This document shows positions 43,651-62,989 of a DNA stretch of 64,000 bases, piece by piece. The DNA comes from Tubulanus polymorphus. Taxonomy: Eukaryota; Animalia; Nemertea. Location: assembly GCF_964204645.1 (NCBI RefSeq), contig NC_134025.1, positions 20,187,101 through 20,251,100 on the forward strand, in the 5' to 3' direction. The notes beneath the pieces are model-generated. The model was not told the origin of the DNA. It was given only the letters and a program-made list of their open reading frames with translations, and ran no database searches. The position numbers and the translations under genes are program-made. Position 1 is the stretch's first letter. Each line of letters begins with the position of its first letter.

Positions 43651-46600
43651 ATTTATTTATTTATTTCGCCATGTACATATGCAGTATAAATGATATATAG
43701 ATTATAAACAATTTACATACATACGAGGCTGGATGCTTGGAAAGCCAATGGAGGCTGTGTCCTGTAGGGATCCAAGCACCCAGAAAAAAAATTCAAAATT
43801 TAATGAAATTAGGTAGAATGAGGGTGAAATGGAAACGCGAAATGGGAGTAATCTGTCCGCTGTAGAAGTTTTAGATACATCAGTTTGATTCATTAACTTC
43901 AAAGAATTGTGCTTTAAATGACTTAAGACCAGAATTGGATTTGGGTTCAATAGCCATTAATTTCCTTAAATCTGTTTATTAGAGTGTGGACTGTTGGAGC
44001 ATTTTTGATTGAGGAATTTTGAGTTTGCCAGATAATTGGTATTTTTCCAAGAACAGATCTATTATATAAACTTGATGAATAGGCAGCAACTCTCGGATAG
44101 TCTCTTTGTCTAGTATTATAGTTGTGGTTGAATGAGTTTTTTTGAAAGATAGCAAGAATGGGCCGAGGAAGGCTAGTTTTAGTATATCTATAGCCAGTTT
44201 TAACCAATTCCAGTTTATTCAAGTCGTCAAGCTTCAAGATTTTCATAGATTTGAATAATGGATTAGATGGTGCTCGGGAAGTAGAGTTGAAAATCGTTCG
44301 TACTGCTCGCTTCTGTAATTTGAATAAGTGGTCTAAATTTTTCTTTGTTATGAGTGGAGCCCACAAATTCAGACAATACATTAAGTGACTATGCACATAA
44401 CTGAAATAGAAAATCTTCTTTATCCATTGTGGAACAAAATTTTTTTATACATCTAATCAAATACAGGTTTTGTTGATTTTTGAAATTATACTTCGGACAT
44501 GCTCTTCAAAAGTTAAGTTCTCGTCAATATTAAGTCCTAGTAAAGTAAAGCTAGTCACCCTCTTTATTGTGTCATTTCCAAATTTTAGTTCTATATCGTC
44601 GAAATTTACTTTAAACGAACGTGGTTTAAATAGCATATATGCTGTTTTGCTGATATTCAGGGTTAATTTATTAGCTTTAAACCAGTCAATAATAGAAATT
44701 AAGTCAGATTTGACATTTTGCACAAGTAATCTCAAGTTTTTTTCACTTGCTACTAGTGTACTGTCATCTGCAAAAAGAATAGATTTACAATACTTTAGGG
44801 ACCCCGACAAATCATTTGTATAAATAATAAAAAGCAGTGGCCCTAAAATTGAGCCCTGTGGTATTCCATAGTCGAAATTTTTAATACGAGACTTAGAATT
44901 TCTAAATTCAACAAACATTTTTCGATTTTTCAGGTAACTTGTGAACCATTTTAGGGCTGTTCCCCGAATTCCAAGATATGATAGTTTAGATAAAAGAATG
45001 TCAATGTCTAGTGAATCGAATGCTTTCGAAAGATCTAAATATATACTTAACATAAATTGTTTAGAATCAATAGTGTCTATGGCATGACTCAAGAATTCTT
45101 ATAGGGCATCGCAGGTCGAGTGATTTTCTCTAAATCCGTATTGACTTGGATAAAGTAAACTAAATCTTTTAATGAAAGTATATAGCCGTTTGTGTACTAT
45201 TCTTTCAAGAACTTTTGATAAAACTGGCAAAAGAGAAATAGGTCTGTAATTATTCATATCGTCCTTACTTTTATTTTTGTATATAGGAATAACTTTGGCA
45301 ATTTTCATGCTGGTAGGGAAGTGACCTTCAGCCATTGACTTATTGACAGTAAGTGGTTCAGCTATTTCATGGCCAATGGACCTGATCAAAATATTGTTCA
45401 AATCATCGTGTCCACAGCTGGATTTACTTGGGAGATTGTGAATAACTTTTAATACCTCGTTAGGATCTGTGGGGAAGAGAAAAATAGAAGATTCATTACG
45501 GTTTCGAAGATATTTGTCAAAAGATTTATTTGAAATGGGAATTTTTGAGGCGTACGATTTACCCAATGTACTAAAAAAATCATTGAATGAATTACTTATT
45601 TCAAGTGGTTCATTGATAACCCTCCCACTCACAGTAAATGAATCGGAAGTAATACTGGTTTTATCATTTTGTTTCCCAATGATTATTTTTAAGAAGCTCC
45701 AAAGTTGTTTGGCATTATCTTTATATGTTAGAATTCTTTTGCCGTAATATGCCTTTTTAGCTCGACGTTTGATGTAGTTCAGATTATTACGATAATTTAA
45801 ATACGCGATGTAACGAGGATCGGTTTTATTTAAGCCAATGACTTTTCTATAGATTCTATCTTTCTTTTTGGTAGCTTTACATAAGCCTGTTGTCATCCAT
45901 GGCTCAATGATAACAGTTTTTTTTTATAGGTGTTTGATATACAGGGGGAAATGTCATCTAATACAGTTTTAATGTTTTCAATGATATGATTGTATCCCTC
46001 TTCGCTACTTAGATTATTAATTTGGTTCCAGTCCTTTCTCAAAAGGGAATTTCTGATATGAAAAATTTTTTTTTCAGATAGATCTCTATAAGTATATTGA
46101 TGAGTAATTGTTTTAGAGGTATGATTTTTAAGTTTAATAGATACAAGGCACGGTAGGTGATCAGATAAGTGTGATGTCAAGATGAAACTCTCATAATCCA
46201 ATAACTCATGAGATAGATAAATATTGTCAATTAGAGTAGCTGTTGAATGAGTGATGCGAGTTGGCTTAGTTATTGTTGGCAGAAGATTATGATCAAAATT
46301 ATGTATCATCAAAATTATTATCAAACTTATCAAAATTGGAGAAATTCCGCTGTATTTCTGTGACAGTTGGTTTTTATTAGGTCTAGATTTTGATCCATTC
46401 CTAAAATCTTCAATTTATTTTCTAATTCAATTTTATCCAATAATGAATTATAGTCATCTATGAATTCAAGCCCACTTGTACCTGGAACTCTATAAATTTC
46501 ACCAATTATGAAGTTTTTGTTATTCGGTCTAGAAATTTCAATGATACAGGATTCAAAATGGCCTTCTTTGAAAATTGTTAAGTCGTCTCTGATTTTGGAG

Positions 46601-46882
46601 TTATATTTATTACTAACAAAAATTGCAACACCACCTCTCTTTCCTGACTTTCTATGTTTCTCGTAGAGTTTATAACCGGGAATGGTAAATAGATCTGAAT
46701 TTTGGTCATCCATGAAGGTTTCACACAGGAGTAATATGTCGATTTCGCAATTTGATTTTTTACAGGTTTCTAATAAGAGTTTAAGGTCGTTTATTTTTGC
46801 TGGAATACTGTGTATATTTAAATGAATTATGTTAAGATTTCCATGGGTTTCATAGTGAAATATATCATGCGCTTCAATGTAT
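43651..46882 (-). mobile_element. CR1/L2-group LINE ORF2 (APE + RT), frameshifted, with 3' UTR and (TAAA)n tail
   Basis: HLNIHS, LCETF, GGVAIF, PTRIT..TLIDNIY, SDHLP; YRPISLL, DLSKAFD, GIPQGSILGP, FADDS; split across 5 ORFs. Confidence 0.9.
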
Positions 46883-48151
46883 TGATACACCGGTCACAAT
46901 CCTCTCCTTAATCGTTGAATATAAAAACGTAAAGATCGGTCCCTGGCGAGAGAACGTGTCCGTGCACAAACCCAAATAATCAAACTAAAATGCCGAAATT
47001 CTGATTGAATATAATAATAATAATATAGATTTTATTTACCTTGATGATAGTAATAACTCCAGATAGTACACAGTCCAATTCCTAACTCCAAATTCCTATT
47101 GTACACTACTGTTGGTAACCCGTCTTAACTCTGGTATTTCCACCCAAACCTCAAGTATCTCTAACGAGCGTCCCTGGTAAGTCTGCTTTCTCAAGACTGC
47201 GGGCCTTTTTTATAGAAAAGATCGACATTCCTAGAATGCCGACTCTCCCGTTCGACTTTTGGCAAGGAGCAGCAACCTAGCTGTCATGACGGTTTTGGAC
47301 ATGTAGAATTAGCCTTAATGATTCGCTAATCTAAAATTATTTGAGAAACTGATTTGCCAAAGTAACTTTTCTTTCCAACCCTCCTGTCATAACGCGCTTT
47401 GATTTACTCACTCCCTACTCATCATCGTTGAGAGAGCAGCTATTCTCTACGAGTTACCAACAGACATGTACACCAACAGAAACCTTAGAGAGCTAGTATT
47501 GATATTTGCCACAATTAAACTTCCATAAAACTTAAGCGATTATAAAGGTCTTGTCCTTAATTAACATCCAGGATACTTAATTTAGATATATTTTCAAAAC
47601 TTAGTTTTCACCTAGATTATGGAACAAACTCATCGTTTCTTTTTCCAATCAACAATAGTAAACTTTTGATTCAGAAATACAATGTAATTAATTATCAAAT
47701 CTAAAATCATTCTATACTTATTATACCAATTTTCATTTATAATTTAACTAACTCTATAATACTACAGGATAAAGCAAAACAACCATGTCTCCCTATACTT
47801 CCGGTTCTTCCTTTTATAGAAAGTAGTCGGGAGTATCAAGAAGTAACAGCGAGATCCCTGCACAAACCACACTATCAAAGCACCTCATCGTTCCGACCCA
47901 ACCAATTACGTCTATCCTTAAGTTTTTTAAAAATAATTCTGAATGTTTGCCAGATATCGACGCACAAGAACCGAGGAAGAATTATTTTTACCCCTGGCTG
48001 ATTTATTGTCAGCGCTGGTAGATCAAAGCATCAAACAACAACTTGCACACATCGTTTGCTGTCTGATACCCATAAAGAAACCACCAACGTAAACAAAAAC
48101 CATCATTACAGACATTCTTTAGTTACTACGGAATCTTGCTGCGGATCATCA
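46883..48151 (-). repeat. 3' LTR (1269 bp)
   Basis: TG...CA termini; line-by-line identical to 60623-61891. Confidence 0.97.
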
Positions 48152-48161
48152 CTCCCTATCC
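48152..48161 (-). other. Polypurine tract
   Basis: GGATAGGGAG immediately before the 3' LTR on the minus strand. Confidence 0.6.
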
Positions 48162-49633
48162 AGTTTAAATTTCGTCCCGAAATTTTGAATTTAAACCAAC
48201 TCGTGAATATCCCGCTGATACCTCTAGAACAAATCCTGAAAAAGAACATTAGTAAACAATTCATTATAACGAGTAACGAGTTTGACACTACAACGCATAT
48301 TAAAGTTCATGATATAGTATATCATAAAACCGCATTTAAAGTTCCGGATACCCAATCGGAAAAAAGTTCATTCGAGACCGCTGTCCCCGCACACTAAACA
48401 CTCGAAAGTTAAGCACAAAACAGTTCACAGTTTGAGTTTAGAATTTACCGCGAAGTGACGCAACAGCTACCAGACACAACAAGGTACGTCATGGACGGAC
48501 GAATGACGTCATCCACCGCAGTTCCTCGAAGCGCGTACTGCTACGTTGATAGTACGGCAAAACGCATTCATGTTCAGCTGATACTTGCTCGCTATTCATA
48601 GACGCTATAGTACTACGGTTACTATATCGGAGTCTTTTCTCCACAGTTACTATAGAAACGGAACAGTAATGTATTCGCATCTTACGGCTTGAGCGAACAA
48701 CATTCCATCGAATGTTAATGGAACTACAAGGGAGCCATCTTGAACACACTCGGCTTTACTCCGCTAAAATGTCTACGGAAATTATCACTTTTCTTCATAT
48801 TTCGTATCGCATTGGCCAGGTGTCTTTGTCCACCCTTCATCACTTAAGTTTGTGAGTATATAACAGGTCTTCGAGAGTGACAAACACCACTAACAATGGC
48901 CAGAATCGCATGACTAATCATCGAGCATGATTCCATCCGGTTAAAACCAACGCCCAAAGTTCGCTGTTGTACGTCGTATATTCGCTCCGTTTCTTTGTTA
49001 TTTGACGAATCGGCAAATTAATATCACTCATCTCGACCAGAGCATACCAGTTGTTGGTTTATCATACTATCAGTTGCGTCGAATAGAGTCTCAGGATACC
49101 TCCCAACAAGTCCCCATCTCCATATGGTCACTATCAGGGGGGTACCCGTCGACATCTATTGCGGTTGACAGAAGAAGGCATTCTTCCATCAAGGTGCTGT
49201 CATATCTCGACGGTCCCATCTTCACACATCCGATAAGGGTACCTTACAATCAAATAAAAACACAGAGATTATATAAAAATTTCATAACTCTTCCTTTTCT
49301 ATCTGACAATTAACAACTTCTACTCAGACTACGGATAATAAACACTGGAGATTATTGATATTACGGCGATAGGCCAATAACACGACAGTTAAACCTATAA
49401 TCTATGTTTATTTTATGGTTGTCTTTATCTCACATAACTTAAAGGCTTAATAGTACTTATTCCTAATATATCTGTGTTTCATCATCATATAATAACAACT
49501 TTCCGACAATTTTGCAGGACATATGCATCCTGACCTTATTACTGATTAAATTATACTTACGTCAAATCCAATGAGGGCATTCGAACACCCTTATTCAGAA
49601 TAGCTATTCTTAAATAGCTTTCAAATACTGCCC

Positions 49634-52267
49634 TCAGTACAGATATGGGTACAGCCTACTGGCATCAGCCAATAGCGAATTCCTGGGAATCCCCACCGAA
49701 TAGTCTGGTGGCGACAGATCGCCGCCAGGGGAAGCTGTGAGTGCCAGTATACCGGGCCCATGCTCAGTCCGAGCCTCATCATGTATAACCACGATCTCGG
49801 GTTCCACAGACGAAACTGTCAGCTGGGTCGCTTCTCGTAGTTCGGTAGTAAACGACCGATAAACCGCAACAACCACAACCTTACTCGGAACTGACACGAG
49901 CTGTCTCATTGTGAAGAGACTTACTCGTAGGGGAACCGAGCAGGAAGTCGGCAGATTATACATCGTCCCTTGCGAACAAGTCAGTTGCTTAGCCTGCCAG
50001 GTTAAGTTCAAGCGGGCGACTCCACAAATGACTCGCAACGCAACCTTAGTAAGAGCTGGAGGCTCGAAACAACATCTCGTTTCACAACCGGACAATGTTA
50101 GTAGAGGCAAGTCCAATGTCTGAATTCCATTCTTAAGCCTTATGGCTAGCCTAACCGGATATTTTCCCGGTGAACAAGGTGCAGGCAAACAGTGTCGGCA
50201 CCTATAGCACATAGCACGCAATAAAGGTCTGAACACAATTATAACTATACCTACTACAATAACTAAGAACAGGACGACATCGACGCGCACATTCTTGGCT
50301 GTGACAACCTCCCGAATGACCGTATTATTCCAGCCACCTCGTTGTAGGTCATGGATAGCGGGGTGAACAGTCACCATAGCTTCAGCGGTCGGAAGAAGTC
50401 CTGCTCCCAGAATTGATAAGGACCCTTGCGACTTTAGCAAAACGAATATTGAGAGCAGCATGCTGCCCGCAGAGAGACCAATAGCGAGCCAAGTGAGCCA
50501 CCCTGTACCGGTTCCAGACGAAATAACAGGTTCAGAATGATCAAATAAAGCGTCTGCTTGCGATCGGTACAGTTTAGCGTCAGTTTGAACGGTTCTTGCT
50601 AACTTTTTGAAATCCATGCTAAATTTAGTGTCCACCGCAGCCACTTTTGACCAGTTATTAGCCTTGAAATCCAAACTAGGCAGCGGTGCGTATGGCGTGC
50701 CCTGGAACATTGTCGCTCCAGTAACGTTGGACACTACATTCTTTGAAAAGAAACTATGTAGGACTGGTAAATTAACAGCGTGCGCAATGGTCACCGTGTC
50801 TTGGTTAATACATTTGTTAATTCTACCGGGCACAAAAAATTTTGATCCACGCAATGCACATGCACACCCAATTTTTACCAAACAAAAACGACATGCTTTT
50901 ATTGCTTTTGGTGACTTGCCAGGGCAGGCGAGAGTCCAAAAATCGTCAGTGCCTGAAACAACAAAGTAGCCATCCCCTACGTCGACTGCCAGTTCGGCCA
51001 GGCCCTGGACCTCATACCGTATGTGGCATAATGCTAGCACCTGTGAGGGTTTATCGAAGAAAAGGCTACTCAGGCATGATTCTACGGTTGCTTCGCGCAT
51101 GGACACGCGCTGCCGGCAAGTCATCACATCGGTTCCATAACAAGTAGCAAATATATCGTGACCCATTTCAGTGTAGTAACTACCGTCCCTAGTAGCGCCA
51201 AAATAAGGGGCTGTACCAACAATCATTGAAGTGTTATAGGACGTTGCGTTTATTGGCACTGGCATTAAGACAACCGAGTATAAATCAAAATATGTCTGAC
51301 CAGATTGCAAGGGGATTTTGATTGATATGTAAACAAATTTATCGGTCTTAGTAAAGCACACATCCTTAACTATGTAATAATAGCCTACATCCCTATTAGC
51401 TATTGAAAACCCAGAATGCATCCTATTCAATTTTTCGGACACATCGTCAAGAACCTTCGAAACCATTTTTGGATTAACCAGGGCTCTAGGCAAATATCCC
51501 TCCAATAACTTTTCAACCCCCTGCAACCACTCACTGGAAACTGCCGTCAGTCGTTCCACTAGGATGATATTTCTTATTGTCATGTCAGACGCCAATGCTA
51601 GCATACTCGCATCGACACTTTGCTTTAGCAGTGTCGTTCGAATTGATTTAAGTTCTTTTGAATTGGCCACGTATGCAGAGGTCAGGCTACTGATTCGTTT
51701 GTCAGTCGCGTTAATAAATGAAGAGAGTGTCCCCTGTATGTGGGTGATTTGATCCGAATTCAACTTGACTATTTTTTCTACTTTTTCGACGTGATTTTCT
51801 ACTTGCTGAACTTCATCTTCGGTAGCAGTACCGAACAAGGAAGACGAAATCGATCCGATAAATGAAAGTGGTGCACGTTTGACCCTGCGCCCACTGGCGT
51901 GTCGTTTCTTTCGTGAGTCGGTATCTGCAGCATCAGGTATCATTTGTCTCATATCAGCCAATTGTCCCCTGATATGGGTCAACGTGTCTAACTGTAGGCG
52001 ATGCGCCTCACGAAACATTTCCAAATAGCCGGAGCAGTGAGAACGAAGTTCTGGCTGGACAAGAGAACAGCGTAGCCGCAAGCCTTTACTCGGGGGGTCA
52101 TTAACAACTAGCCATGGTATCGCGAACGTGTGAAACCAGGCACTGTCGCCATTATGGACTCCTCCAATCCGATGAAAGGCGACACCATAGTTTGGCCTCA
52201 AGACCGTCGAGGGCATCAGACAATAGGCCGACGACCATATGGCCACCAAGATTACGACAATTTGCAT
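49634..52267 (-). CDS. env: Envelope (class I fusion, F-like) polyprotein, 877 aa
   Basis: Signal peptide MQIVVILVAIWSSAYC, furin site RRVKR, fusion peptide APLSFIGSISSSLFGTAT, heptad region, Cys-rich ectodomain, TM segments; tttttcag acceptor 1 nt before ATG. Confidence 0.88.
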   Translation of the reverse strand: MQIVVILVAIWSSAYCLMPSTVLRPNYGVAFHRIGGVHNGDSAWFHTFAIPWLVVNDPPSKGLRLRCSLVQPELRSHCSGYLEMFREAHRLQLDTLTHIRGQLADMRQMIPDAADTDSRKKRHASGRRVKRAPLSFIGSISSSLFGTATEDEVQQVENHVEKVEKIVKLNSDQITHIQGTLSSFINATDKRISSLTSAYVANSKELKSIRTTLLKQSVDASMLALASDMTIRNIILVERLTAVSSEWLQGVEKLLEGYLPRALVNPKMVSKVLDDVSEKLNRMHSGFSIANRDVGYYYIVKDVCFTKTDKFVYISIKIPLQSGQTYFDLYSVVLMPVPINATSYNTSMIVGTAPYFGATRDGSYYTEMGHDIFATCYGTDVMTCRQRVSMREATVESCLSSLFFDKPSQVLALCHIRYEVQGLAELAVDVGDGYFVVSGTDDFWTLACPGKSPKAIKACRFCLVKIGCACALRGSKFFVPGRINKCINQDTVTIAHAVNLPVLHSFFSKNVVSNVTGATMFQGTPYAPLPSLDFKANNWSKVAAVDTKFSMDFKKLARTVQTDAKLYRSQADALFDHSEPVISSGTGTGWLTWLAIGLSAGSMLLSIFVLLKSQGSLSILGAGLLPTAEAMVTVHPAIHDLQRGGWNNTVIREVVTAKNVRVDVVLFLVIVVGIVIIVFRPLLRAMCYRCRHCLPAPCSPGKYPVRLAIRLKNGIQTLDLPLLTLSGCETRCCFEPPALTKVALRVICGVARLNLTWQAKQLTCSQGTMYNLPTSCSVPLRVSLFTMRQLVSVPSKVVVVAVYRSFTTELREATQLTVSSVEPEIVVIHDEARTEHGPGILALTASPGGDLSPPDYSVGIPRNSLLADASRLYPYLY

Positions 52268-52313
52268 CCTGAAAAATAGGGATAGCAAGAATCAGTAATC
52301 TCGAAACCACGTA

Positions 52314-55300
52314 CTAGTCGTCTCTTTCTCGACGTCTCTTCTTATTTTTACGAGTTTTTCGCTTCACTTTAGCGGCATGGTCATCCCAATAGGCTCGAAT
52401 GATTTCAGGAGGCAGGTTTTCGGCTGGCTCAAACGTGTTCTCATTATCGTCATAGCCAACCCATTTTATAAGATATTTCAGAATGCCTTTCTCTTTTTTG
52501 TGACGAATCACTCGTTCTACGTAATAGATTGGCTCAACCGGATTCGCAGGCTGATTTCGATCGCCCGGATCATCCGGTGCGAGGACAGGCCCCTCCTCAG
52601 GTTGATCCCCGTCCTCCCTGTCAATAGGTGGATTCTCAGGTATGTCGTCCTCGAGCGGCCTAATGTCCGTTGAAAAGAAATGCTTCAATCTATTACAATG
52701 TACTGGGACGGCCAACTCTTGATTCCTCTCATTCTCCAAAATGAAAGATACAGGAGAAATCTGTCGGACAATTCGATAAGGGCCCGTCCATTGATGAAGC
52801 AATTTCTTACTAAGCCTCTTTATTTTCTTTGGAGTGAATAGCAACACTTGATCACCTACTGCGAAATTTGGGGGAACGGCAGTCCTGTCGAAACGTTCCT
52901 TCATCTTCTCCTGCGCCTTTTTGATATTAGCCTTGGCCAACTTCCTGGCCTCTTTTAACTTTGGCAACATTGCTTGGACAAAGCCTCCTGCATCAAAGTA
53001 AACGTCCCTCGGATTAAGTAAAGCAACGTCCATCGGCAACCTCGGTTCTCGGCCATACATGAGGTAGAATGGCGAGTATTGCGACGTATCCGAAGCTGGA
53101 CTTACCCGATATGCAAATAGAATGGGGTAAAGGTATTCGTCCCAATCGGTTTGGCGTTCATTGCAGTACATGCTCAGAGCCTTGACAATCACAAGATTCA
53201 TGTGCTCGACTTGTCCTTGAGTTTGTGGTCTATACGCACTGGACCGTGCCCGTGGCGTATTACATAGCCGCGAAACCTCGCTGACTAATTTACTCAGGAA
53301 ATTTGTTCCGCGATCGCTCTGCAAAACAGAGGGCGCCCCATGGCGACAAATGATTTGTTCATAAAAGATCGTAGCGACCGTCGTGGCTTCTTGGTTAGTC
53401 ATAGCAAAAGCTTCAACCCACTTTGTAAGATAGTCGACAAAGACCAATATGTATTTATTTCCCGAGTCCGTTGTTGGAAAAGGACCACAGACATCCATTG
53501 AGACTCTATCCCACGGCCCTGTGACAGCTATGGGGTTAACCGGGGCCCTAATGGGCTTCCCTGGCTGATTCTTAGTCGCACAGTCCTTACAGGATTTAAT
53601 CCAATTTTCAACGTCTCGATACATACCATGCCAGTAATACCTTGCTCGCAAGGTTTCGTAGGTCCGTTTGTGACCCAAGTGACCGCCAGTCATTGAATCA
53701 TGACCAGCCTCTAACATTTCCGCATACATACTTTTAGGTATGACCAACTGACGAGGCCCATCAGCCTCAATTTTCTTTTTAGAGTCCACATGGTAAAGAA
53801 CTCCATCATCGTCAACAAAGAAGTAGTCTGACTGCAAGATAATTCTCCGGGCTTCCTTGTCATCATCTGGCAAGGTACCATCAAGTAAATAGTCTATAAG
53901 ACACACTAATTGTAAATCAGACCGCTGGAGCTCGCCCATGTTGACGGGTACAGGCCGCTCATTGTCAGCCTCGAGAGCACACGTGTCGATAGTGTCTTCC
54001 ATACTATCAGAGATGGGATACGGGCGACGAGAGAGCCCATCGGCGTTCCCGTTTGCCTTGCCTGGACGATGCGATATGGAGTAGTCAAATTGCTCTAAGT
54101 AGAGTGCAATACGGCCAACACGACCCGAAAGTGTTTTCATGGTCTGAAGATACCGTAAGCAACTGTGGTCTGTGATAATCTCGAAATGATATCCCCGTAA
54201 GTAGGGTTCAAACTTTTTGACTCCTGCTGCAACAGCTAAGAGTTCACGGTCCGTTGTAGAATAATTTTTCTCCGCTTTATTCAATCCTCGCCCCGCATAT
54301 GCAATTGCTCTTTCTTGCCCATCCTGGACCTGCGCCAGGACCATGCCGATACCTTCATCGGAGGCATCAGTATATAATAAAAATGGCGATGCCCCATAAA
54401 TGGGGAAGGCCAATACTGGGGCTTCGAGCATCGCTTGCTTAAGGGTGTCGAAAGCCTGTTGACAAGAAGCGTCCCATCTATACGGCACGCCTTTCTTAGT
54501 CAACTGGTGTAAGGGGGCCGCCATAGTGCTGTAACCTTTACAAAAACGCCGATAATAATTGGTGAACCCCAGAAAACTTCGTAGTTCTTTTAAAGTCGTG
54601 GGGACAGGCCATTCCTGTACGGCTGCTACCTTTTCCGGGTCAGTAGCGATCCCGTCCTTAGATATTCGATGCCCAAGGAAGTCAATGGTTTTGACAGCAA
54701 ACCGACATTTCTTGGGATTTAGGCGAAGGCCTGACTCACGAAATCGATCGAAAATTTGAGCCAGGTGAATTAAATGACCATCAAAAGAATTCGAGTAACA
54801 GATAATATCGTCCAAATATACTAGACAAAATTTCCCAACCAAGTCTCTCAGCAGACCACCAGTCAACCGCTGAAAGGTAGATGGCGCCGATTTCAGACCA
54901 AATGGGAGTACCTTAAATTCCAAAAGAGACGACTGTGTTATAAAAGCAGTCTTATCCCTACTGGCCTCGTCAACTTCAACTTGCCAGTAGCCACTCAGAA
55001 AATCAAGTGAGCTAAAGAATGTAGGTGCCGCTTGACCAACCTGAGCCAAGAGATCATCGATTCTAGGCAGGGGAAAAGAGTCTGAACGGGTGACAGCATT
55101 CAATCCCCGGTAGTCAACACAGAATCTCCACTTGACATCTCCGTCCGGGCTCTTCTTCCGAACGAGAACGACCGGGGCAGCCCATGGGCTAGTACTATGC
55201 TGTACTATCCCCATGTCTAACATCTGTTTGACATGCGTGTCAATAACTTCTTGCATGGCCGGAGAGGCTCTATAAGGCCTTTTCCGAATTGGGGCCGCGT

Positions 55301-57080
55301 CCCCTGTGTCAATGACGTGTTTGACTAAGTCAGTTTTACCAAGTTCGTCCGGTGTTCGTGCAAAAATGTCCCGATACGATCGTATTAGTTCAAGAAGTTC
55401 CGCTTTCTGTGATACAGAAAGGTCCGAGTCTGACATATCTATTTCCGGTATCCCAATGTCAGCAGATGTCTGAGGGTAGTCCACATGTGTGACAGACACC
55501 TCTGGAGGTCGGGTCAGCTGTCCCGAATTCCCTTCATTCTTCAGGGATTGGTCAAGTGACCACCCATCTGTCCATAAGTGGCCAAGACACATATCCTCAT
55601 AGAGGGTGACATGTCGTGATGTGGGATTCATGACCCGAACCGGAATGCCTGATTGCGTAACGTCGACAACTGACCTTGCACTCATAAGATCATGTGCCCT
55701 TAATTGATTTGCCGGCTCAAAGACTGCCACCGATGCTTGTGTCCTGTCAATCGAGTACTTTCCGTCTATGATGACCTCACATGAGGGGGGAATGACAGTC
55801 ATTTGCGTAACCTTGACGGACGAAGACTTGCCCAAATTGACAGTATTGTTGAAGTAAATTGCATCGGCCCCTGGTAACAAAAGGGCCTTTCTTGCATAAT
55901 CAATAACTGCCTGGTTTTGTTCTAAGAAATCAGCTCCAAGAATTACATCGGACGTGATACCGTCTACCACGTACATAGAGTGCGTAATTTCCAAATTGCC
56001 TAACACAAAATCCACAGAAATAACTCCTCTCAGGTCAAATTTAGTTCCATCTACCCCACGGGCAGATTGGAATTGACCGACCTGCAAAGGGCCATTTGAT
56101 ATCTGAGGATGAGTCGTAAAATAATCGTTCGATAATACAGATATTTCGGCGCCCGTGTCGATCAAAATACTTAATGGTGTCCCCGAATGGCTACCTGTCA
56201 CTCGGTTAGCGACAGTTGCCATGATCGACGGGGAATAAACCTCTTGTTCAACAGGATTATTCTGACTAGAAAGAGACCATATGTCGTTGGTTGGCGTGTC
56301 ACCTAACGTCGTCGTAATAGGCGGAAGTTGTTCCTGACAGTGAATAGTAGGTTGAAACTCGGAGTTCGAATCTCCTATTCCAACATTGTCATTGGTTGGC
56401 ATAATTGGTTCAGACGTGGGGACAACCTGACCTCCGTCCCGTACGATGGACATTTCATTACCGAATAACCGACAACAATTTTCCGATGTTGACACCTGAT
56501 TCGATACATTCGATACGACAGTCTCCGTATCATGATGATCATTACGACATTCCGACCGTGAACTGTTATTACTTAAATCAACTGACACTAGGTCACATTG
56601 TACCGCTGATTCGGAAGTTACCGGGTACTTATACTGATCAAGAGTGCGTTCGTGACAATTCAATTGAGACTTCTTATCTCTAAAAAGGTCATCTTCTGCC
56701 GAATCCGTCGGACCATTAACCCCTCTAGGGTGTGACCTATCAACACTAATATTGTCACCCGAGCACGCCATATCCGCACGTACCTCCTGCAATTCAACCG
56801 GATCGCTAAATGTGACCCTCCTGTGTCTTTTTATAGGCTCTCTAGTAACCGACAACTGGGAATTATTCATCCAGCTGTCCTCAAAATTGGATCCCCGATC
56901 CATATAAAAATTTCCATCAAACGACAACTGGGTATTGTCCCTCCAGCTGTCCCCAAAGTTACGATCTTGAATGTCATAAACGTCATCGGCACCCCATGAA
57001 GGAGTGTGATAATCAATAAACTTATTTAAATGTATAGGTTCATTTTCATCTAAGTAATCTACATTACAGTTCCCCTCAGG
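52314..57080 (-). CDS. pol: Pol: aspartic protease, RT, RNase H, integrase, chromodomain
   Basis: LIDTGA; YLDD; YTDAS; H-H-C-C, SMDVCGP/QSDRG/GQVE, WTGPY; YYVERV..YLIKWVGY..NTFEPAENL; frame is open up to a TAA at 57081-57083. Confidence 0.95.
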   Translation of the reverse strand, partial: PEGNCNVDYLDENEPIHLNKFIDYHTPSWGADDVYDIQDRNFGDSWRDNTQLSFDGNFYMDRGSNFEDSWMNNSQLSVTREPIKRHRRVTFSDPVELQEVRADMACSGDNISVDRSHPRGVNGPTDSAEDDLFRDKKSQLNCHERTLDQYKYPVTSESAVQCDLVSVDLSNNSSRSECRNDHHDTETVVSNVSNQVSTSENCCRLFGNEMSIVRDGGQVVPTSEPIMPTNDNVGIGDSNSEFQPTIHCQEQLPPITTTLGDTPTNDIWSLSSQNNPVEQEVYSPSIMATVANRVTGSHSGTPLSILIDTGAEISVLSNDYFTTHPQISNGPLQVGQFQSARGVDGTKFDLRGVISVDFVLGNLEITHSMYVVDGITSDVILGADFLEQNQAVIDYARKALLLPGADAIYFNNTVNLGKSSSVKVTQMTVIPPSCEVIIDGKYSIDRTQASVAVFEPANQLRAHDLMSARSVVDVTQSGIPVRVMNPTSRHVTLYEDMCLGHLWTDGWSLDQSLKNEGNSGQLTRPPEVSVTHVDYPQTSADIGIPEIDMSDSDLSVSQKAELLELIRSYRDIFARTPDELGKTDLVKHVIDTGDAAPIRKRPYRASPAMQEVIDTHVKQMLDMGIVQHSTSPWAAPVVLVRKKSPDGDVKWRFCVDYRGLNAVTRSDSFPLPRIDDLLAQVGQAAPTFFSSLDFLSGYWQVEVDEASRDKTAFITQSSLLEFKVLPFGLKSAPSTFQRLTGGLLRDLVGKFCLVYLDDIICYSNSFDGHLIHLAQIFDRFRESGLRLNPKKCRFAVKTIDFLGHRISKDGIATDPEKVAAVQEWPVPTTLKELRSFLGFTNYYRRFCKGYSTMAAPLHQLTKKGVPYRWDASCQQAFDTLKQAMLEAPVLAFPIYGASPFLLYTDASDEGIGMVLAQVQDGQERAIAYAGRGLNKAEKNYSTTDRELLAVAAGVKKFEPYLRGYHFEIITDHSCLRYLQTMKTLSGRVGRIALYLEQFDYSISHRPGKANGNADGLSRRPYPISDSMEDTIDTCALEADNERPVPVNMGELQRSDLQLVCLIDYLLDGTLPDDDKEARRIILQSDYFFVDDDGVLYHVDSKKKIEADGPRQLVIPKSMYAEMLEAGHDSMTGGHLGHKRTYETLRARYYWHGMYRDVENWIKSCKDCATKNQPGKPIRAPVNPIAVTGPWDRVSMDVCGPFPTTDSGNKYILVFVDYLTKWVEAFAMTNQEATTVATIFYEQIICRHGAPSVLQSDRGTNFLSKLVSEVSRLCNTPRARSSAYRPQTQGQVEHMNLVIVKALSMYCNERQTDWDEYLYPILFAYRVSPASDTSQYSPFYLMYGREPRLPMDVALLNPRDVYFDAGGFVQAMLPKLKEARKLAKANIKKAQEKMKERFDRTAVPPNFAVGDQVLLFTPKKIKRLSKKLLHQWTGPYRIVRQISPVSFILENERNQELAVPVHCNRLKHFFSTDIRPLEDDIPENPPIDREDGDQPEEGPVLAPDDPGDRNQPANPVEPIYYVERVIRHKKEKGILKYLIKWVGYDDNENTFEPAENLPPEIIRAYWDDHAAKVKRKTRKNKKRRRERDD

Positions 57081-57262
57081 TTAAAAATAAAGAGAAAATG
57101 AGTCAGCTAGCATGTTGCCCTGATCAAATGACATGTCGAATATATCATCCCTATCGTCCTCAAAATAATCATCAACATCATTAAAAATATAATCGTCGAT
57201 TACAGGACTGTCATCGTCATATCTATGATATGAATATGAGTCGTCCCACCAAAAATCACTCC

Positions 57263-58423
57263 TTATCGTCGAATCGGGCGAGGGCTCTGTTGACCATTCA
57301 TTGCGCGACCCCACCCTTGTCGGTCCATAGGATGAGGTCCCCGGTCGTTTCCCTGACTAAATGTTCGATTAGCCCCTTGGGAACCACGTCCAATATTCTG
57401 TGACCGAAACTGGCCCCTACCAAAGTTTTGGGGACGGTGATTATCACGCTGAAATGCGTCCCGGTTTGGCGAGACCCGCGACCTTTGTTGGTCGTAACGC
57501 CAAGTTGGACAATTCCTGGCGTAATGACCGGGGGCGTGACATTGGTAGCACACCACCTGCCCATCTTGCGACCGTTGTGATGGACGGTTCTCGCTATAAT
57601 AAGTACCCCTATCATCCCGCTGAGTTCGGGTAGACTTTTGTGTGTCCATGATTTGGCGGAACATGTCCCGTAGCTCCGTCATGACATCCCCTATCGCCTT
57701 ATTTGGTTCGGTCCCAATTTGCGATATCTTGGGAGACGACAGGGCCTTTCGTTGTTCGATATGTTCAGCCATTCTGGCTGCCTCCCATGCATCCCTAAAA
57801 GTCGTTGGACGTTGCGACAACAGATAGACTGAAATGTCAGGCCGAGAGTTATTGATCAATAACATCTTTTTCTGGTGGTCCGAGAACTTCAAACTTGAGG
57901 CCACCCGATCAATCTCCTCCGCAAACCTATCGACCGGTTGCGTTTCCCCCTGTCGCATTGTCGTCAAGGCCGACTCCTTGACCAAGGCCCACGAGGTAGG
58001 GCTAAATTGCGTGCAAAATGCATGCACAATATGCTCCCAGGGAGTGGTAATTTTTGTGCCGGTCGAATCGGTCGCCTGATCAATGCGGAGGTCATTGAAT
58101 AGAACTAGGGCTGGGCCAGCCAAAAACCAATACAACTGTTTCTTTTTGGCATTTTCGTCCCAGCCTCTCAGATCGGCCAAACGATTGAACCCTCTGAACC
58201 AATCAGAGACGCACTGACTGTCTCGTCCTGTAAATTTCGGGAGCATGGAGAAGTTCATAAACGCGGTGGCCGTGTCCACCTGTTCGCGTAAGCCCGAGAG
58301 GGCCTCTAAAACCGTGTCATTGCTAATTGGGGGGTGACCCTGTGGGTTCCCTCCTGTAGAGGTTTGCCCCTGCAAGCCACCCGCATCGTCCGACCCGTAT
58401 GTTGTCCCGCTTCTAGTTGCCAT
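57263..58423 (-). CDS. gag: Gag (capsid + one CCHC knuckle), 386 aa
   Basis: LPKFTG..W, MRQGETQPVDRFAEE major-homology-like region, CYQCHAPGHYARNC. Confidence 0.92.
   Translation of the reverse strand: MATRSGTTYGSDDAGGLQGQTSTGGNPQGHPPISNDTVLEALSGLREQVDTATAFMNFSMLPKFTGRDSQCVSDWFRGFNRLADLRGWDENAKKKQLYWFLAGPALVLFNDLRIDQATDSTGTKITTPWEHIVHAFCTQFSPTSWALVKESALTTMRQGETQPVDRFAEEIDRVASSLKFSDHQKKMLLINNSRPDISVYLLSQRPTTFRDAWEAARMAEHIEQRKALSSPKISQIGTEPNKAIGDVMTELRDMFRQIMDTQKSTRTQRDDRGTYYSENRPSQRSQDGQVVCYQCHAPGHYARNCPTWRYDQQRSRVSPNRDAFQRDNHRPQNFGRGQFRSQNIGRGSQGANRTFSQGNDRGPHPMDRQGWGRAMNGQQSPRPIRR
57305..57353 (-). promoter_or_regulatory. Programmed -1 frameshift signal
   Basis: G GGA AAC in gag frame at 57353-57347, then a 10-bp stem GACCTCATCC/GGGTGGGGTC; -1 frame equals pol frame. 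Confidence 0.75.
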
Positions 58424-58481
58424 TTTCTAAACCAGAGTAATCAAATTATTATTATTCCTACGATGATGCTACTTTTAAATT

Positions 58482-59279
58482 CTAAACCTGATCCTGGCGA
58501 TCAGCCCAACAAAGTAGGTTATCCCAAGTACGGGCAACCTCCTCCACCGTAATCTCTTCCCTTAAAAATGACGAAAGAATGTCATCAATCTCCTCAAAAA
58601 TCCACGAAGTGCTAGGGCCAAGGGCAGACCGACTTTCCGAAAATCGGCCTATACCCCCGCTGGGTGACAGATCCAACGATTGGTCACCCGCAGACGCACC
58701 TAAGGACAGGTCTACTGGAAAACTTTGGACAGGTGCGCCCAAATGTCCGCCCAACAGTTGGCCCGCTACAGGCGTAACAATTGCTAATGGTCTGTTTAAA
58801 GATCGAGTTGCAGACAGGTCTGCCGGTTGCTCTGAATCGAACTGATCAATCCCTATAGGTGAACCAGGCGGCACCGAACAACAGCATGAAAAGCTTGAGT
58901 CGCTGGAACCGGTTGATCCAGCTGATGACGGCGGCCGTGTGAAAGGTTCACCAGTCCGTATCGAGCTATTTCGGTTCGAATCCGTACCCGAAGGACTTAG
59001 GGGCGGAGAAGGGGTCACTGAAGACGAGCAAGTACAATTTACCTGGTCCTGAAAAACCGCTAACGTTGGGCACTCACAATACAAACAACTATCCAAAAAG
59101 TCAAAGTCTGAAGACTGAGAAGTTGGAGTCCCAGCACTGGTCCCAGGGGAAGTAGTTATGATGGTAGGTGTCGCGGGTGCTATACTCACAGTAGTGAGCC
59201 ACCTTTTTCGGGGTAGTGTACTCCAATAACCAGTGCTACGACGTTTGTTTGTGCACCTTACCGTAATCGACCCCGACAT
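58482..59279 (-). CDS. Accessory ORF C, Ser/Pro-rich with PxDLS motifs, 265 aa
   Basis: ATG-started, GC-richer ORF bounded by T-rich spacers. Confidence 0.6.
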   Translation of the reverse strand: MSGSITVRCTNKRRSTGYWSTLPRKRWLTTVSIAPATPTIITTSPGTSAGTPTSQSSDFDFLDSCLYCECPTLAVFQDQVNCTCSSSVTPSPPLSPSGTDSNRNSSIRTGEPFTRPPSSAGSTGSSDSSFSCCCSVPPGSPIGIDQFDSEQPADLSATRSLNRPLAIVTPVAGQLLGGHLGAPVQSFPVDLSLGASAGDQSLDLSPSGGIGRFSESRSALGPSTSWIFEEIDDILSSFLREEITVEEVARTWDNLLCWADRQDQV

Positions 59280-59371
59280 TAACGTACTAACTTACAAATA
59301 ATAATCACCAAAAAGAAAATTATACAATTCGAGTTTAATTGCTTATTATAATTTCAATAACTAACCCCAAT

Positions 59372-59812
59372 TTAATCAAAGTAGCTGTATACTCGCGACT
59401 TATCAGCCAACAATACGTTATGGTCAGGGATAGCACATAAACTGAAATCCCCCTGATCCCAGGTAGACGTATAAGTATTAAGCCCGCTGGGTGGAGGGTT
59501 CGAATCCCTCAGAGTCTGTCCGACCGCTCCGTCGTTATTGGTACCCTTTGTGCTGAGTGGGTTTGAATCCAACAGTGGCTGTTTAACAGCTCTGTCGTTG
59601 GTAATACCCTTGATGCTAAGTGGGTTCGAATCCCACAGTGGCTGTTCAGCAGCTCTGTTGTTAGTGGTCCCCTTGGTGCTAAGTGGGTTCGAATCCCACA
59701 GTGGCTCCCTTAAATGAGCTGGTACCTCCCAACTAGACTTGGGGACTGGGGCAAGCGTGTGCGTCTTGGACACCGTCGCCCCACAGTAACCACGCCTCAA
59801 CCCAGCTGACAT
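59372..59812 (-). CDS. Accessory ORF B with 4 (W/L/R)DSNP repeats, 146 aa
   Basis: ATG-started; 63-bp repeat period keeps frame. Confidence 0.5.
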   Translation of the reverse strand: MSAGLRRGYCGATVSKTHTLAPVPKSSWEVPAHLREPLWDSNPLSTKGTTNNRAAEQPLWDSNPLSIKGITNDRAVKQPLLDSNPLSTKGTNNDGAVGQTLRDSNPPPSGLNTYTSTWDQGDFSLCAIPDHNVLLADKSRVYSYFD

Positions 59813-60450
59813 GTATCAATCACAAACAACACCAAATATTTTTCACAAATAACAATCAGGCAATCATAAAGTTAACAATTGACTGGTACTATAAGACCCC
59901 CTTAGTCTATGCTGGACAAAGGAAATAGCCGTCAGCGTCTTTATCACCAAAGAACAACTCGGCCGGGTTTGCAAAATCACGAAAAAAATGTGCCCAAAAT
60001 GGGTCGAATTTCTCGGGCACTTTCACTGGCTTTACCCTTTGCCGGCGTTCGAGAGGGTTTGAATCCCTCGAGGTGATCGAAGCTTCGCGCTGAGTGTCGG
60101 TCGGGTTAGAATCCCGTAAAGGCTCAGCAGATACGGCCAAAGTCAGCAGTGGGTTCGAATCCCACAACGGCTCCCGATACTCTTCCGGGATTTCAAATGG
60201 CTGTGCACCTCTGGGGTTCGAATCCCGCAGTGTCTCAACAGGGTCGACCGGAGTTGGCAGTGGGTTCGAATCCCACAATGGTTCCCGAAACTCGACCGGA
60301 ATTTCAAATGGCTGTGCACCTCTGGGGTTCGAATCCCGCAGTGTCTCAACAGGGTCGACCGGAGTTGGCAGTGGGTTCAAATCCCACAATGGTTCCCGAA
60401 ACTCGACCGGAATTTCAAACGGTTTGGTATTAGGTGGGTTCGACCCCCAC
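59494..60450 (+). repeat. Array of 12 tRNA T-arm / Pol III B-box hairpins
   Basis: Consensus GTGGG-TTCGAAT-CCCAC starting at 59494, 59557, 59620, 59683, 60053, 60101, 60149, 60212, 60260, 60323, 60371 and 60434. Confidence 0.9.
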
Positions 60451-60545
60451 AATTTCTTTTTGTATGTTGAGTTGGTTGTAGTGCGGCGCTTCTTAGAGAA
60501 TGCGTTCCTCGCACCACAGTGGGAGCATACGAAGATATGTACCAT
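59907..60545 (-). CDS. Accessory ORF A with CxxC, basic NLS-like patch and 8 WDSNP-like repeats, 212 aa
   Basis: First ATG ~60 nt after the PBS; 48/63-bp repeat spacing keeps frame. Confidence 0.55.
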   Translation of the reverse strand: MVHIFVCSHCGARNAFSKKRRTTTNSTYKKKLWGSNPPNTKPFEIPVEFREPLWDLNPLPTPVDPVETLRDSNPRGAQPFEIPVEFREPLWDSNPLPTPVDPVETLRDSNPRGAQPFEIPEEYREPLWDSNPLLTLAVSAEPLRDSNPTDTQREASITSRDSNPLERRQRVKPVKVPEKFDPFWAHFFRDFANPAELFFGDKDADGYFLCPA

Positions 60546-60602
60546 TTGAACAAAACTAAACAATTAATGTAAAAAGTTTATCGTAAACCGAAGATTATTG
60601 AT

Positions 60603-60621
60603 ATCCCGGGTTTCGGCACCA
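60603..60621 (-). promoter_or_regulatory. Primer binding site, tRNA-Phe
   Basis: TGGTGCCGAAACCCGGGAT, complementary to the 3' end of metazoan tRNA-Phe(GAA) ...ATCCCGGGTTTCGGCACCA, 1 nt from the LTR. Confidence 0.9.
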
Positions 60622-60622
60622 A

Positions 60623-61891
60623 TGATACACCGGTCACAATCCTCTCCTTAATCGTTGAATATAAAAACGTAAAGATCGGTCCCTGGCGAGAGAACGTGTC
60701 CGTGCACAAACCCAAATAATCAAACTAAAATGCCGAAATTCTGATTGAATATAATAATAATAATATAGATTTTATTTACCTTGATGATAGTAATAACTCC
60801 AGATAGTACACAGTCCAATTCCTAACTCCAAATTCCTATTGTACACTACTGTTGGTAACCCGTCTTAACTCTGGTATTTCCACCCAAACCTCAAGTATCT
60901 CTAACGAGCGTCCCTGGTAAGTCTGCTTTCTCAAGACTGCGGGCCTTTTTTATAGAAAAGATCGACATTCCTAGAATGCCGACTCTCCCGTTCGACTTTT
61001 GGCAAGGAGCAGCAACCTAGCTGTCATGACGGTTTTGGACATGTAGAATTAGCCTTAATGATTCGCTAATCTAAAATTATTTGAGAAACTGATTTGCCAA
61101 AGTAACTTTTCTTTCCAACCCTCCTGTCATAACGCGCTTTGATTTACTCACTCCCTACTCATCATCGTTGAGAGAGCAGCTATTCTCTACGAGTTACCAA
61201 CAGACATGTACACCAACAGAAACCTTAGAGAGCTAGTATTGATATTTGCCACAATTAAACTTCCATAAAACTTAAGCGATTATAAAGGTCTTGTCCTTAA
61301 TTAACATCCAGGATACTTAATTTAGATATATTTTCAAAACTTAGTTTTCACCTAGATTATGGAACAAACTCATCGTTTCTTTTTCCAATCAACAATAGTA
61401 AACTTTTGATTCAGAAATACAATGTAATTAATTATCAAATCTAAAATCATTCTATACTTATTATACCAATTTTCATTTATAATTTAACTAACTCTATAAT
61501 ACTACAGGATAAAGCAAAACAACCATGTCTCCCTATACTTCCGGTTCTTCCTTTTATAGAAAGTAGTCGGGAGTATCAAGAAGTAACAGCGAGATCCCTG
61601 CACAAACCACACTATCAAAGCACCTCATCGTTCCGACCCAACCAATTACGTCTATCCTTAAGTTTTTTAAAAATAATTCTGAATGTTTGCCAGATATCGA
61701 CGCACAAGAACCGAGGAAGAATTATTTTTACCCCTGGCTGATTTATTGTCAGCGCTGGTAGATCAAAGCATCAAACAACAACTTGCACACATCGTTTGCT
61801 GTCTGATACCCATAAAGAAACCACCAACGTAAACAAAAACCATCATTACAGACATTCTTTAGTTACTACGGAATCTTGCTGCGGATCATCA
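60623..61891 (-). repeat. 5' LTR (1269 bp)
   Basis: Identical to 3' LTR; minus-strand TATAAAA near 60948-60954 and AAG/GTAAATAAA near 60780. Confidence 0.97.
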
Positions 61892-61984
61892 TGGACAGCT
61901 ATTGGTGAAAATATTTAAGTCTTTGTCAATTACGTGGGAAAGATCGAAATTTTCATCTGCTGAAATGATTTCCAGTCTTGTCAT
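61892..61984 (-). pseudogene. N-terminus of the interrupted CR1-group LINE ORF2
   Basis: MTRLEIISADENFDLSHVIDKDLNIFTNSCP continues as YIEAHDIF at 46881. Confidence 0.6.
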
Positions 61985-62607
61985 GAAATTTGTATTGCCT
62001 AAACACATAATCGGACAGATGAGGTTCGGCGGACAGATAAACGATGGTAGTGTTATGACGAAGTATGACTACGTGAAATGACAGGAGTAAATGCACACAC
62101 ATAATAAACTATATACTTATGGGTAATCGCCAACTTGTATATGGCTGTTATTGTGAGTGTGTTTTCAAAATGCGGGAAAATATATAATGATTTACTAGTT
62201 AATACTACAATGATGTCCAATGGAGTGAAACCTTTTCATGCCACCAGAGTGAAATACTCAATACCTTAATACGAGATAGGCTCAATGAGGAATACTCACT
62301 ACTCAGAGTAAATAAATAATCTTGCATGGCATGTGTCCAACCAAAGATTTGTTTACAAGTCATCCAGGAAGAAAGACACTAAATATTTGGATGGATATAT
62401 GAAAGCTGTGGGTACTGGAGTGTGTAATGGGTAGTGTAGTGTGATCTGTGTGCATTTGTGGCCAGCACACAGATCACATTGTTCAATGGGGTTTGGTCCA
62501 GGACTCGCGAGATTTTCAACAACACGGAAGTAACGTGTAATAAATGATGACTTGAATTGCATGACTACCTACCACCCCTCATTATTGTTGTAAAAGTAAA
62601 CGTTCCG

Positions 62608-62970
62608 CACTGACTAAAAATTAGTAATAATGATTAATAATATTTTAGAAATGGCCAGAAATTTTAACTTAGGTTCTATCTCATTTTTATTTTACAATTG
62701 CTATTGGTATAAATTTTTTTTAAACGGCCGTTAAGGCTTCATGTTTCGTCTGCAATTCACTGCAAATAGTTACGCAACTACGCACGTTTCAGTGTTTTTG
62801 GCAGCTGTACACTCAATCGGCACCGTTCGTGACTAGCTTCACTGCGGAATTATCATTAATTAACATCGCCATATCACATCATCAACTTATATTGTGCCAT
62901 AAAACCCTAACAGCCGAAATAATTGAAATGCACACACGATTTCTATCATTGAAAATTGAGAGAGTGGCCG
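62608..62970 (+). repeat. Dispersed repeat, copy of 16657-17000
   Basis: Direct sequence similarity. Confidence 0.7.
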
Positions 62971-62989
62971 TGTTTGTGTTCTGCTGCTT

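What the first reader, a model, noticed from the sequence alone, without database searches (positions are those of the whole stretch)
46883..61891. Complex-retrovirus-like architecture: chromodomain integrase + env + three accessory ORFs upstream of gag, recently inserted
Seen: identical 1269-bp LTRs, intact gag, pol and env frames, and 2.1 kb of extra ORFs between PBS and gag. Established: classical insect errantiviruses have env but no chromodomain, classical chromoviruses have a chromodomain but usually no env, and gag normally follows the PBS leader directly. Inference: a potentially infectious, currently active invertebrate endogenous retrovirus lineage with regulatory genes.
Basis: partly seen in the sequence, partly recalled or inferred. 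Interest (0 to 1): 0.82.

Follow-up and report, generated by a model that had tools for sequence, protein, structure and literature searches.

The report
Envelope retrotransposon with three orphan genes
A recently inserted retrovirus-like jumping gene of a likely invertebrate host belongs to an already described envelope-plus-chromodomain kind, but ahead of its capsid gene it carries three extra, likely protein-coding frames with no relatives found, two of them built from repeats that also spell tRNA-arm-like hairpins.

Summary
The element is real: 15,009 bp, minus strand, identical 1,269-bp LTRs, tRNA-Phe-type primer site, gag, chromodomain-tipped pol, F-type env, and three ORFs (212, 146, 265 aa) between primer site and gag. 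The empty site is present in three read sets, so the insertion is young. The headline combination, chromodomain plus env, is already in print (Chary and Hayashi, eLife 2026; 28 of 139 listed elements). Accessory ORFs upstream of gag are also known, in Drosophila MDG1 elements. What I did not find described is this cassette. No homologue turned up. Repeats within and between ORF-A and ORF-B show purifying selection in the ORF frame (pN/pS 0.35), so they are likely translated; ORF-C rests on weaker evidence. Thirteen repeat cores read, antisense, as a tRNA T-arm/B-box with a covarying 5-bp stem. Infectivity and expression are untested. Verdict: new variant of a known kind, interest 0.5.

The parts
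60623..61891 (-). 5' LTR, 1269 bp, TG...CA; TATA-like TATAAAA at 60954; splice-donor-like AAG/GTAAAT overlapping AATAAA near 60781-60771
   Evidence: signals are consensus matches only
60604..60621 (-). Primer-binding site, one base after the LTR; its first 12 nt are the exact complement of the tRNA end listed as Phe_GAA_His_GUG
   Evidence: PMC13524379 supplementary file 1 rows
59907..60545 (-). ORF-A, 212 aa: N-terminal CxxC and basic patch, eight L[WR]DSNP-type repeat cores at 48/63-nt spacing; no transmembrane segment; no homologue found
59372..59812 (-). ORF-B, 146 aa, partial paralogue of ORF-A, four cores at 63-nt spacing; ATTAAA signals at 59376 and 59339 follow it
58482..59279 (-). 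ORF-C, 265 aa, Ser/Thr-rich, 10 Cys, basic N-terminus, acidic C-terminal segment, one core; no homologue found
58968..60456 (+). Array of 13 tRNA T-arm-like cores (5-bp stem, 7-nt loop), antisense to the element; 10 match the B-box pattern
57263..58423 (-). gag, 386 aa, one CCHC knuckle
57295..57353 (-). Predicted -1 frameshift signal: G GGA AAC at 57353-57347 plus a 3' stem-loop
   Evidence: only in-phase slippery heptamer in gag; -22 kcal/mol, z -2.5, 2 of 200 shuffles as stable
57081..57356 (-). Pol-frame transframe stretch, acidic and aromatic, ending at a single TAA (57083-57081)
52314..56903 (-). pol ORF, 1529 aa: protease (DTG), RT (YLDD), RNase H, integrase (HHCC, D-D-E), chromodomain
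49634..52267 (-). env, 877 aa, F-type: signal peptide, two furin-type sites (119, 128), fusion-peptide-like segment, two hydrophobic segments (590-613, 653-688), long tail; acceptor-like TTTTTCAG/G just before the ATG
48152..49633 (-). 1482-nt region without an ORF of 70 aa or more, ending in a purine-rich tract before the 3' LTR
46883..48151 (-). 3' LTR, identical to the 5' LTR
43947..46882 (-). Target: endonuclease-RT ORF of a LINE, split by the insertion; its N-terminal codons continue beyond 61892
   Evidence: LINE identity from recalled motifs, no family scan run

Best explanation
This is a young copy of a Ty3/gypsy retrotransposon with gag, chromodomain-tipped pol and an F-type env, whose family likely also expresses three orphan accessory proteins from a gene cassette between the primer site and gag. 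Shown: the anatomy, the domains, the empty site, purifying selection on the ORF-A/B repeats. Inferred: one transcript from the 5' LTR; ORF-A read by scanning, B and C by leaky scanning or reinitiation across 58-94-nt AT-rich spacers, with a possible short RNA ending at the ATTAAA signals after ORF-B; Gag-Pol by -1 frameshift at G GGA AAC; Env from a spliced RNA; tRNA-Phe priming; chromodomain-guided integration. The accessory proteins are soluble, so they would act inside the producing cell (most likely nuclear control of the element's own transcription or RNA export, by analogy with MDG1 sORF1 and Cer1 CERV), not as fusogens. The repeat cores probably carry a second, nucleic-acid constraint (about 55%): I favour hairpins in the genomic RNA leader whose self-complementary loop hexamer would aid dimerisation or packaging (about 30%) over a TFIIIC-bound B-box barrier (about 25%). 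Because this copy's Gag-Pol frame stops before the protease, it was probably copied with Pol from a sister element.
For: Identical LTRs and an empty site in X4, X1 and X2, 3 of 4 runs laid. Domains. Env matches solved 'fusion protein' chains 9w4d/9w4c at E 4e-18 and 2e-16; the best fold hits are RSV F and chu-like and baculovirus F glycoproteins. Five DNA-defined repeat comparisons in A and B: pS 0.265, pN 0.092, Fisher p 1.7e-4 in the ORF frame; other sense frames pN/pS 1.31 and 0.76. ORFs are 51-52% GC like gag (53%), spacers 23-32%. Two rearrangements seen in other copies of ORF-A change its length by 48 and 177 nt, both in frame (tables 5 and 5c). Stem: 90.9% of cells paired against 79.8% shuffled (0 of 500), 3 of 5 pairs with two-sided changes. 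Relatives with fused Gag-Pol (P0052, P0063, P0029; 3 of 8 with both landmarks) have a similar acidic-aromatic linker.
Against: No homologue of A or C in any search, so conservation beyond this family is not shown. The repeat comparisons share units and are not independent; ORF-C has no paralogue to test. At 90% likeness the cassette has only about 40% of pol's depth in X4 (41-43 against 95-131), so many copies lack it or have diverged. Most invariant core bases are also explained by the peptide; the stem test uses related sequences and a structure read off them; single hairpins fold no better than shuffles (z -0.2 to 0.3). The Env model is weak (pLDDT 52, TM-scores at most 0.24). A 1-bp target duplication does not fit ordinary integrase action.
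Confidence: 0.6

Rival explanations
1. The upstream region is a non-coding regulatory repeat array (B-box insulator bound by TFIIIC, or captured tRNA-derived pieces), and the ORFs are by-products of GC-rich repeats whose periods happen to be multiples of three.
For: 10 B-box-pattern matches in 2.2 kb, all on one strand, against 3 in the other 61.8 kb; Rfam aligns one core to a T-arm (E 0.073, below gathering score); W and R interchange while the GG of the stem is kept; no protein homologues.
Against: Synonymous excess in the ORF frame, 9 of 16 differences at third positions between A and B; ORF-C is non-repetitive and an ORF of 200 aa or more arose in 2 of 2000 resamplings; no A-box by my patterns within 80 nt upstream of any of 13 cores.
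Confidence: 0.15
2. The stop before pol is not damage: this subfamily makes Pol separately from its own ATG at 56903 (reinitiation or a spliced RNA), like every other ORF of the element, and the copy is autonomous.
For: The 1529-aa ORF keeps all catalytic motifs; an AT-rich stretch (36% GC) precedes its ATG as for the other ORFs; a branch-point-like CTGAC and pyrimidine tract lie beside the stop; the copy is very young.
Against: A canonical slippery site and stem-loop open the pol frame 88 codons before the stop; relatives carry the same kind of linker inside a continuous Gag-Pol; the AG after the pyrimidine tract is GAG, a poor acceptor; other copies diverge across 57010-57099.
Confidence: 0.2
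3. The cassette is hitch-hiking cargo of one sub-lineage: once coding, captured from an unknown source, dispensable and now decaying.
For: Lower read depth than pol in all three runs with coverage; an internal region of 12,471 bp against 8.0-11.1 kb for the 8 chromodomain elements whose LTR coordinates I saw in the paper's table.
Against: All three frames are open in a fresh copy; recent duplications in ORF-A kept the frame; diverged copies still align to ORF-A cores.
Confidence: 0.15

Closest known systems
Chromodomain-bearing F-type 'ancient errantiviruses' of Cnidaria, Mollusca and Annelida (Chary and Hayashi, eLife 2026, PMC13524379)
   Same: gag-pol-env order, F-type Env with furin site and fusion peptide, chromodomain after integrase, low copy number, long LTRs.
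   Different: No ORFs upstream of gag are mentioned in the main text ('upstream of gag', 'accessory', 'extra ORF': 0 hits); this element's internal region is longer than the 8 I could size; placement in their clade was not testable.
Drosophila MDG1/412 group with sORF1 and sORF2 (bioRxiv 10.1101/2025.03.14.642691, passages)
   Same: Translated accessory ORFs between 5' LTR and gag, in gag orientation, with an internal poly(A) site.
   Different: MDG1 elements lack env; their ORFs are about 110 and 70 aa and sORF2 is a membrane protein. Here there are three soluble ORFs of 146-265 aa plus env and a chromodomain.
Cer1 and its CERV protein, C. elegans (PMC10309623, abstract)
   Same: An animal LTR retrotransposon with a regulatory accessory protein, a precedent for 'complex' organisation.
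   Different: CERV comes from a spliced mRNA; no sequence relationship was tested.
Helenus, tRNA-derived sequence in LTR elements (PMC10886601, passages)
   Same: tRNA-like B-box sequence inside an LTR retroelement.
   Different: Helenus is non-autonomous with one A-plus-B-box unit in each LTR; here 13 T-arm-only cores lie antisense inside internal ORFs.
Troyka (PMC12440569, abstract)
   Same: Target duplication shorter than the usual 4-6 bp.
   Different: Troyka has CG...CG ends and 3-bp duplications; this has TG...CA and 1 bp at the single site seen.

Membership tests
Ty3/gypsy (Metaviridae) | pol order protease-RT-RNase H-integrase | tested here: met
Ty3/gypsy (Metaviridae) | LTRs with TG...CA ends, primer site and purine tract | tested here: met
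Ty3/gypsy (Metaviridae) | RT groups with Ty3/gypsy references | tested here: inconclusive
   Best hits are mostly unnamed gypsy-type Pol proteins with the same domain set, none named retroviral among 120 listed; no GyDB references were available for the tree
Ty3/gypsy (Metaviridae) | 4-6-bp target duplication (typical trait, not used here as the family definition) | tested here: not met
   1 bp at this one site, 2 if the terminal LTR base is counted
F-type errantivirus sensu Chary and Hayashi | env after pol with signal peptide, furin site, fusion peptide, transmembrane segment, F-like fold | tested here: met
   fold model low confidence
F-type errantivirus sensu Chary and Hayashi | Full-length RT and integrase in one continuous ORF, multicopy | tested here: met
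   pol depth several times flank depth
Chromodomain clade of ancient errantiviruses | Chromodomain C-terminal to integrase | tested here: met
   PF00385 E 7e-13 at residues 1460-1507
Chromodomain clade of ancient errantiviruses | RT falls in the Cnidaria/Mollusca/Annelida clade | not testable with these tools
   Named sequences not on hand; in my tree 6 of 8 nearest neighbours carry a chromodomain, support 0.8
Chromodomain clade of ancient errantiviruses | RNase H plus 'mini' domain in the bridge region | not tested
   Both folding jobs went to Env
MDG1/412 group | No env; two sORFs of 60-130 aa, one membrane-spanning | tested here: not met
   env present; ORFs 146-265 aa; highest 19-residue hydropathy 1.14
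Troyka | CG...CG termini, 3-bp duplication | tested here: not met
Helenus (TRIMp3) | Non-coding; A and B boxes inside the LTR | tested here: not met

The most novel reading that the evidence does not exclude
A complex invertebrate errantivirus lineage with three translated regulatory genes ahead of gag, two of which are dual-coded: the same repeats encode a selected peptide motif and an array of tRNA T-arm mimics that works as an RNA dimerisation/packaging signal or as a TFIIIC barrier protecting a heterochromatin-targeting element; and its integrase may leave a 1-bp target duplication.
Probability: 0.25. Interest if true: 0.8.

Novelty: new variant of a known kind. Interest (0 to 1): 0.5.

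Why it matters
Env-carrying gypsy elements outside insects were catalogued only recently and only by gag, pol and env. A selected accessory cassette in one of them shows that they can reach the gene complexity of lenti- and spumaviruses independently, and it gives concrete proteins and motifs to test for how such elements control expression and evade silencing. A T-arm/B-box array inside coding sequence would be a new use of tRNA mimicry or of Pol III factors by an LTR element. The env-plus-chromodomain pairing itself adds only one more member.

Tried and rejected
No whole genome is held, so copy number and other insertion sites could not be read directly. Homologue searches: ORF-A, none among 661 candidates; one hit in 1.84 billion representatives, a HEAT-repeat-like protein judged spurious; Atlas blank for A and C; ORF-B was scanned only against Pfam. 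No RNA holder listed; the one guessed-RNA run laid nothing, which says nothing on expression. Viral contigs: no relative by pol or env profile; the tandem-core pattern gave 10 loci, 9 with tRNA genes nearby, taken as phage tRNA regions and not scanned for RT. Metagenome relatives (39 loci, 33-48% identity, mostly short) were too distant; 0 of the 10 longer ones inspected had the core. Single-sequence Env fold was unusable (pLDDT 36). No tRNA gene in the window. Rejected: FAST-like fusogen role for A-C (no hydrophobic segment); Troyka and Helenus membership; antisense ORF at 60197-60433 as a gene (mirror of the repeats). Literature searches for B-box/TFIIIC arrays, T-loop mimics, upstream ORFs, short target duplications and errantivirus leader repeats (listings, with passages read only where cited) showed nothing matching this cassette; the library lacks most subscription papers and Repbase.

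Full report
Observation. The element spans 46883-61891 on the minus strand. Its LTRs are identical over 1269 of 1269 bases and end TG...CA. A primer site follows the 5' LTR after one base; its first 12 nt complement the tRNA end that Chary and Hayashi list as Phe_GAA_His_GUG. Six sense ORFs follow: A (212 aa), B (146), C (265), gag (386), pol (1529), env (877). Pfam finds protease, RT, RNase H, integrase and a chromodomain (E 7e-13) in pol, Baculo_F in env (E 4e-10), and nothing credible in A, B or C. The catalytic motifs of pol are present. The element splits a LINE-type ORF whose frame continues across the site.

Age and copies. No genome is held. Three of nine listed runs hold 63-66% of the element's words, all from one study. 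Of four runs laid at 90% likeness, three show the empty site as a joint 46880 to 61891 (15 reads in X4, one contig each in X1 and X2); the fourth laid nothing. The empty sequence could be the allele or a near-identical LINE copy; the X2 contig matches with 0 and 2 differences over 189 and 474 bases. With identical LTRs this makes the insertion young. In X4, depth is 9-22 on the LINE flank, 95-131 on pol and 41-43 on the upstream cassette, so the family has a handful of copies and fewer than half match this cassette closely. The empty site shows that only 1 bp is duplicated, against the usual 4-6 bp (PMC12440569, abstract). I cannot explain this; one site is not a family trait.

Gag-pol junction. 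The only in-phase slippery heptamer in gag is G GGA AAC at 57353-57347, the pol frame opens just before it, and a stem-loop follows (-22 kcal/mol, 2 of 200 shuffles as stable). The -1 frame then runs 88 codons, acidic and aromatic towards its end, and stops at TAA 57083-57081, 59 codons before the pol ATG. Three of eight relatives with both a zinc knuckle and a protease in one frame have a similar acidic-aromatic linker, so the stretch looks like true Gag-Pol. Other copies diverge from the window across 57010-57099. The simplest reading is that this copy is defective in cis; separate Pol expression is the rival.

Env. It has a signal peptide, furin-type sites at 119 and 128, a hydrophobic segment after them, seven N-glycosylation sequons and two C-terminal hydrophobic segments. 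Nine homologues were found among 7995 candidates, 23-41% identical, one named from a scallop. A profile of these matches two solved 'fusion protein' chains at E 4e-18 and 2e-16. The alignment-based model is weak (pLDDT 52); its best hits are RSV F in the PDB (E 1e-5) and chu-like, abalone herpesvirus and baculovirus F proteins in BFVD, all with low TM-scores. Env is F-type; function is untested.

Is chromodomain plus env new? No. PMC13524379 (abstract, sections 6 part 1, 7, 8 and 14, passages, supplementary file 4 whole, supplementary file 1 in part) reports a clade of env elements from Cnidaria, Mollusca and Annelida that all carry a chromodomain; I count 28 of 139 rows so marked. In my own search 56 of the 120 best Pol hits carry PF00385 (the query included the domain), and 6 of the 8 nearest neighbours in an RT-RNase H tree of 112 of those 120 do (support 0.8). 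The named sequences were not on hand, so clade membership is not shown. I saw table rows for 14 of the 28; the 8 with LTR coordinates have internal regions of 8.0-11.1 kb, against 12,471 bp here.

Are the upstream ORFs genes? Probably A and B, less surely C. They are 51-52% GC, like gag, and are separated by 58-94-nt spacers of 23-32% GC; three such ORFs arose in 0 of 2000 resamplings, and an ORF of 200 aa or more in 2 of 2000 for C's composition. A and B are built on repeats of 111 and 63 nt and share a 17-residue segment. Over five comparisons of repeat units, pS is 0.265 and pN 0.092 in the ORF frame (Fisher p 1.7e-4); the two other sense frames give pN/pS 1.31 and 0.76, and only the antisense frame that shares third positions mirrors the signal. 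The comparisons share units, so the p-value is optimistic. Two rearrangements of ORF-A in other copies remove a net 48 and 177 nt, both in frame. Against: no homologue, no expression data, and no between-copy dN/dS, which stays open. None has a membrane segment. Precedents exist for the idea: MDG1 sORF1 and sORF2 lie upstream of gag, are translated, and have a poly(A) site between them (bioRxiv 10.1101/2025.03.14.642691, passages; its supplements were not seen); Cer1 has a Rev-like export protein (PMC10309623, abstract). Two earlier scan notes describe other orphan ORFs in gypsy elements; I did not check them.

The repeat cores. Thirteen cores (8 in A, 4 in B, 1 in C) read on the antisense strand as a 5-bp stem with a 7-nt loop like the tRNA T-arm. 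Rfam aligns one to the T-arm of tmRNA, below the family threshold. Ten match the B-box pattern (recalled consensus), none on the sense strand, against 3 in the rest of the window. The stem is paired in 90.9% of cells (shuffles 79.8%, 0 of 500 as high), with two-sided changes at 3 of 5 pairs (11 of 500); the first base of the W/R codon tends to pair with the free third base of the Pro codon. Asn is AAC in 13 of 13 and Asp GAT in 12 of 12, while codons outside the core vary. Caveats: the units are related, the structure was read off them, most invariant bases are also fixed by the peptide, and single hairpins are no more stable than shuffles. I put a nucleic-acid constraint at about 55%. The same stem forms on the genomic strand with a loop holding a self-complementary hexamer, in the region where retroelements keep dimerisation and packaging signals (own knowledge); a TFIIIC barrier needs no stem, which is why I rank it second. 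Helenus carries tRNA-like A and B boxes, but in the LTRs of non-coding elements (PMC10886601, passages). Searches listed nothing on such an array.

Verdict. A young member of a described kind, with an undescribed and probably coding upstream cassette and two oddities (T-arm cores, 1-bp duplication). New variant of a known kind; interest 0.5; best explanation 0.6.

Noticed in passing
window 46881-46883 and 61891-61893: Only one target base is duplicated (two if the terminal LTR base is counted), judged from the empty allele in three runs; most LTR elements give 4-6 bp.
   Followed up: partly
window 56218-58170 and 47755-49056: Read depth over gag, the gag-pol junction and the 3' untranslated region is up to about twice that over pol in X4, and higher still in X1, suggesting internally deleted derivatives of the family.
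   Followed up: no
window 60771-60781 (and 47031-47041): A splice-donor-like AAG/GTAAAT overlaps the AATAAA signal in the LTR, an arrangement that could suppress polyadenylation in the 5' LTR (inference).
   Followed up: no
window 49634-50200: Env has a second hydrophobic segment and a predicted beta-rich C-terminal domain of about 115 residues that aligns with several homologues.
   Followed up: no
window 62362-63030: Very high-copy repeat (depth about 1600-2000 in X4 against about 16 in the LINE flank) inserted next to the LINE's 5' part.
   Followed up: no
window 29541-32674: Three copies of a unit at 1417-bp spacing, identical over the 300 nt shown.
   Followed up: no
window 16430-16510, 34260-34310, 35130-35200: Isolated B-box-like sites, probably tRNA-derived short repeats of the host; no similarity to the element's repeats beyond the core.
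   Followed up: partly
protein P0018: A Pol relative with gag, pol, chromodomain and a rhabdovirus-G-type fusion domain in one 2524-aa frame; P0034 also runs on past its chromodomain into a long glycoprotein-like tail.
   Followed up: partly
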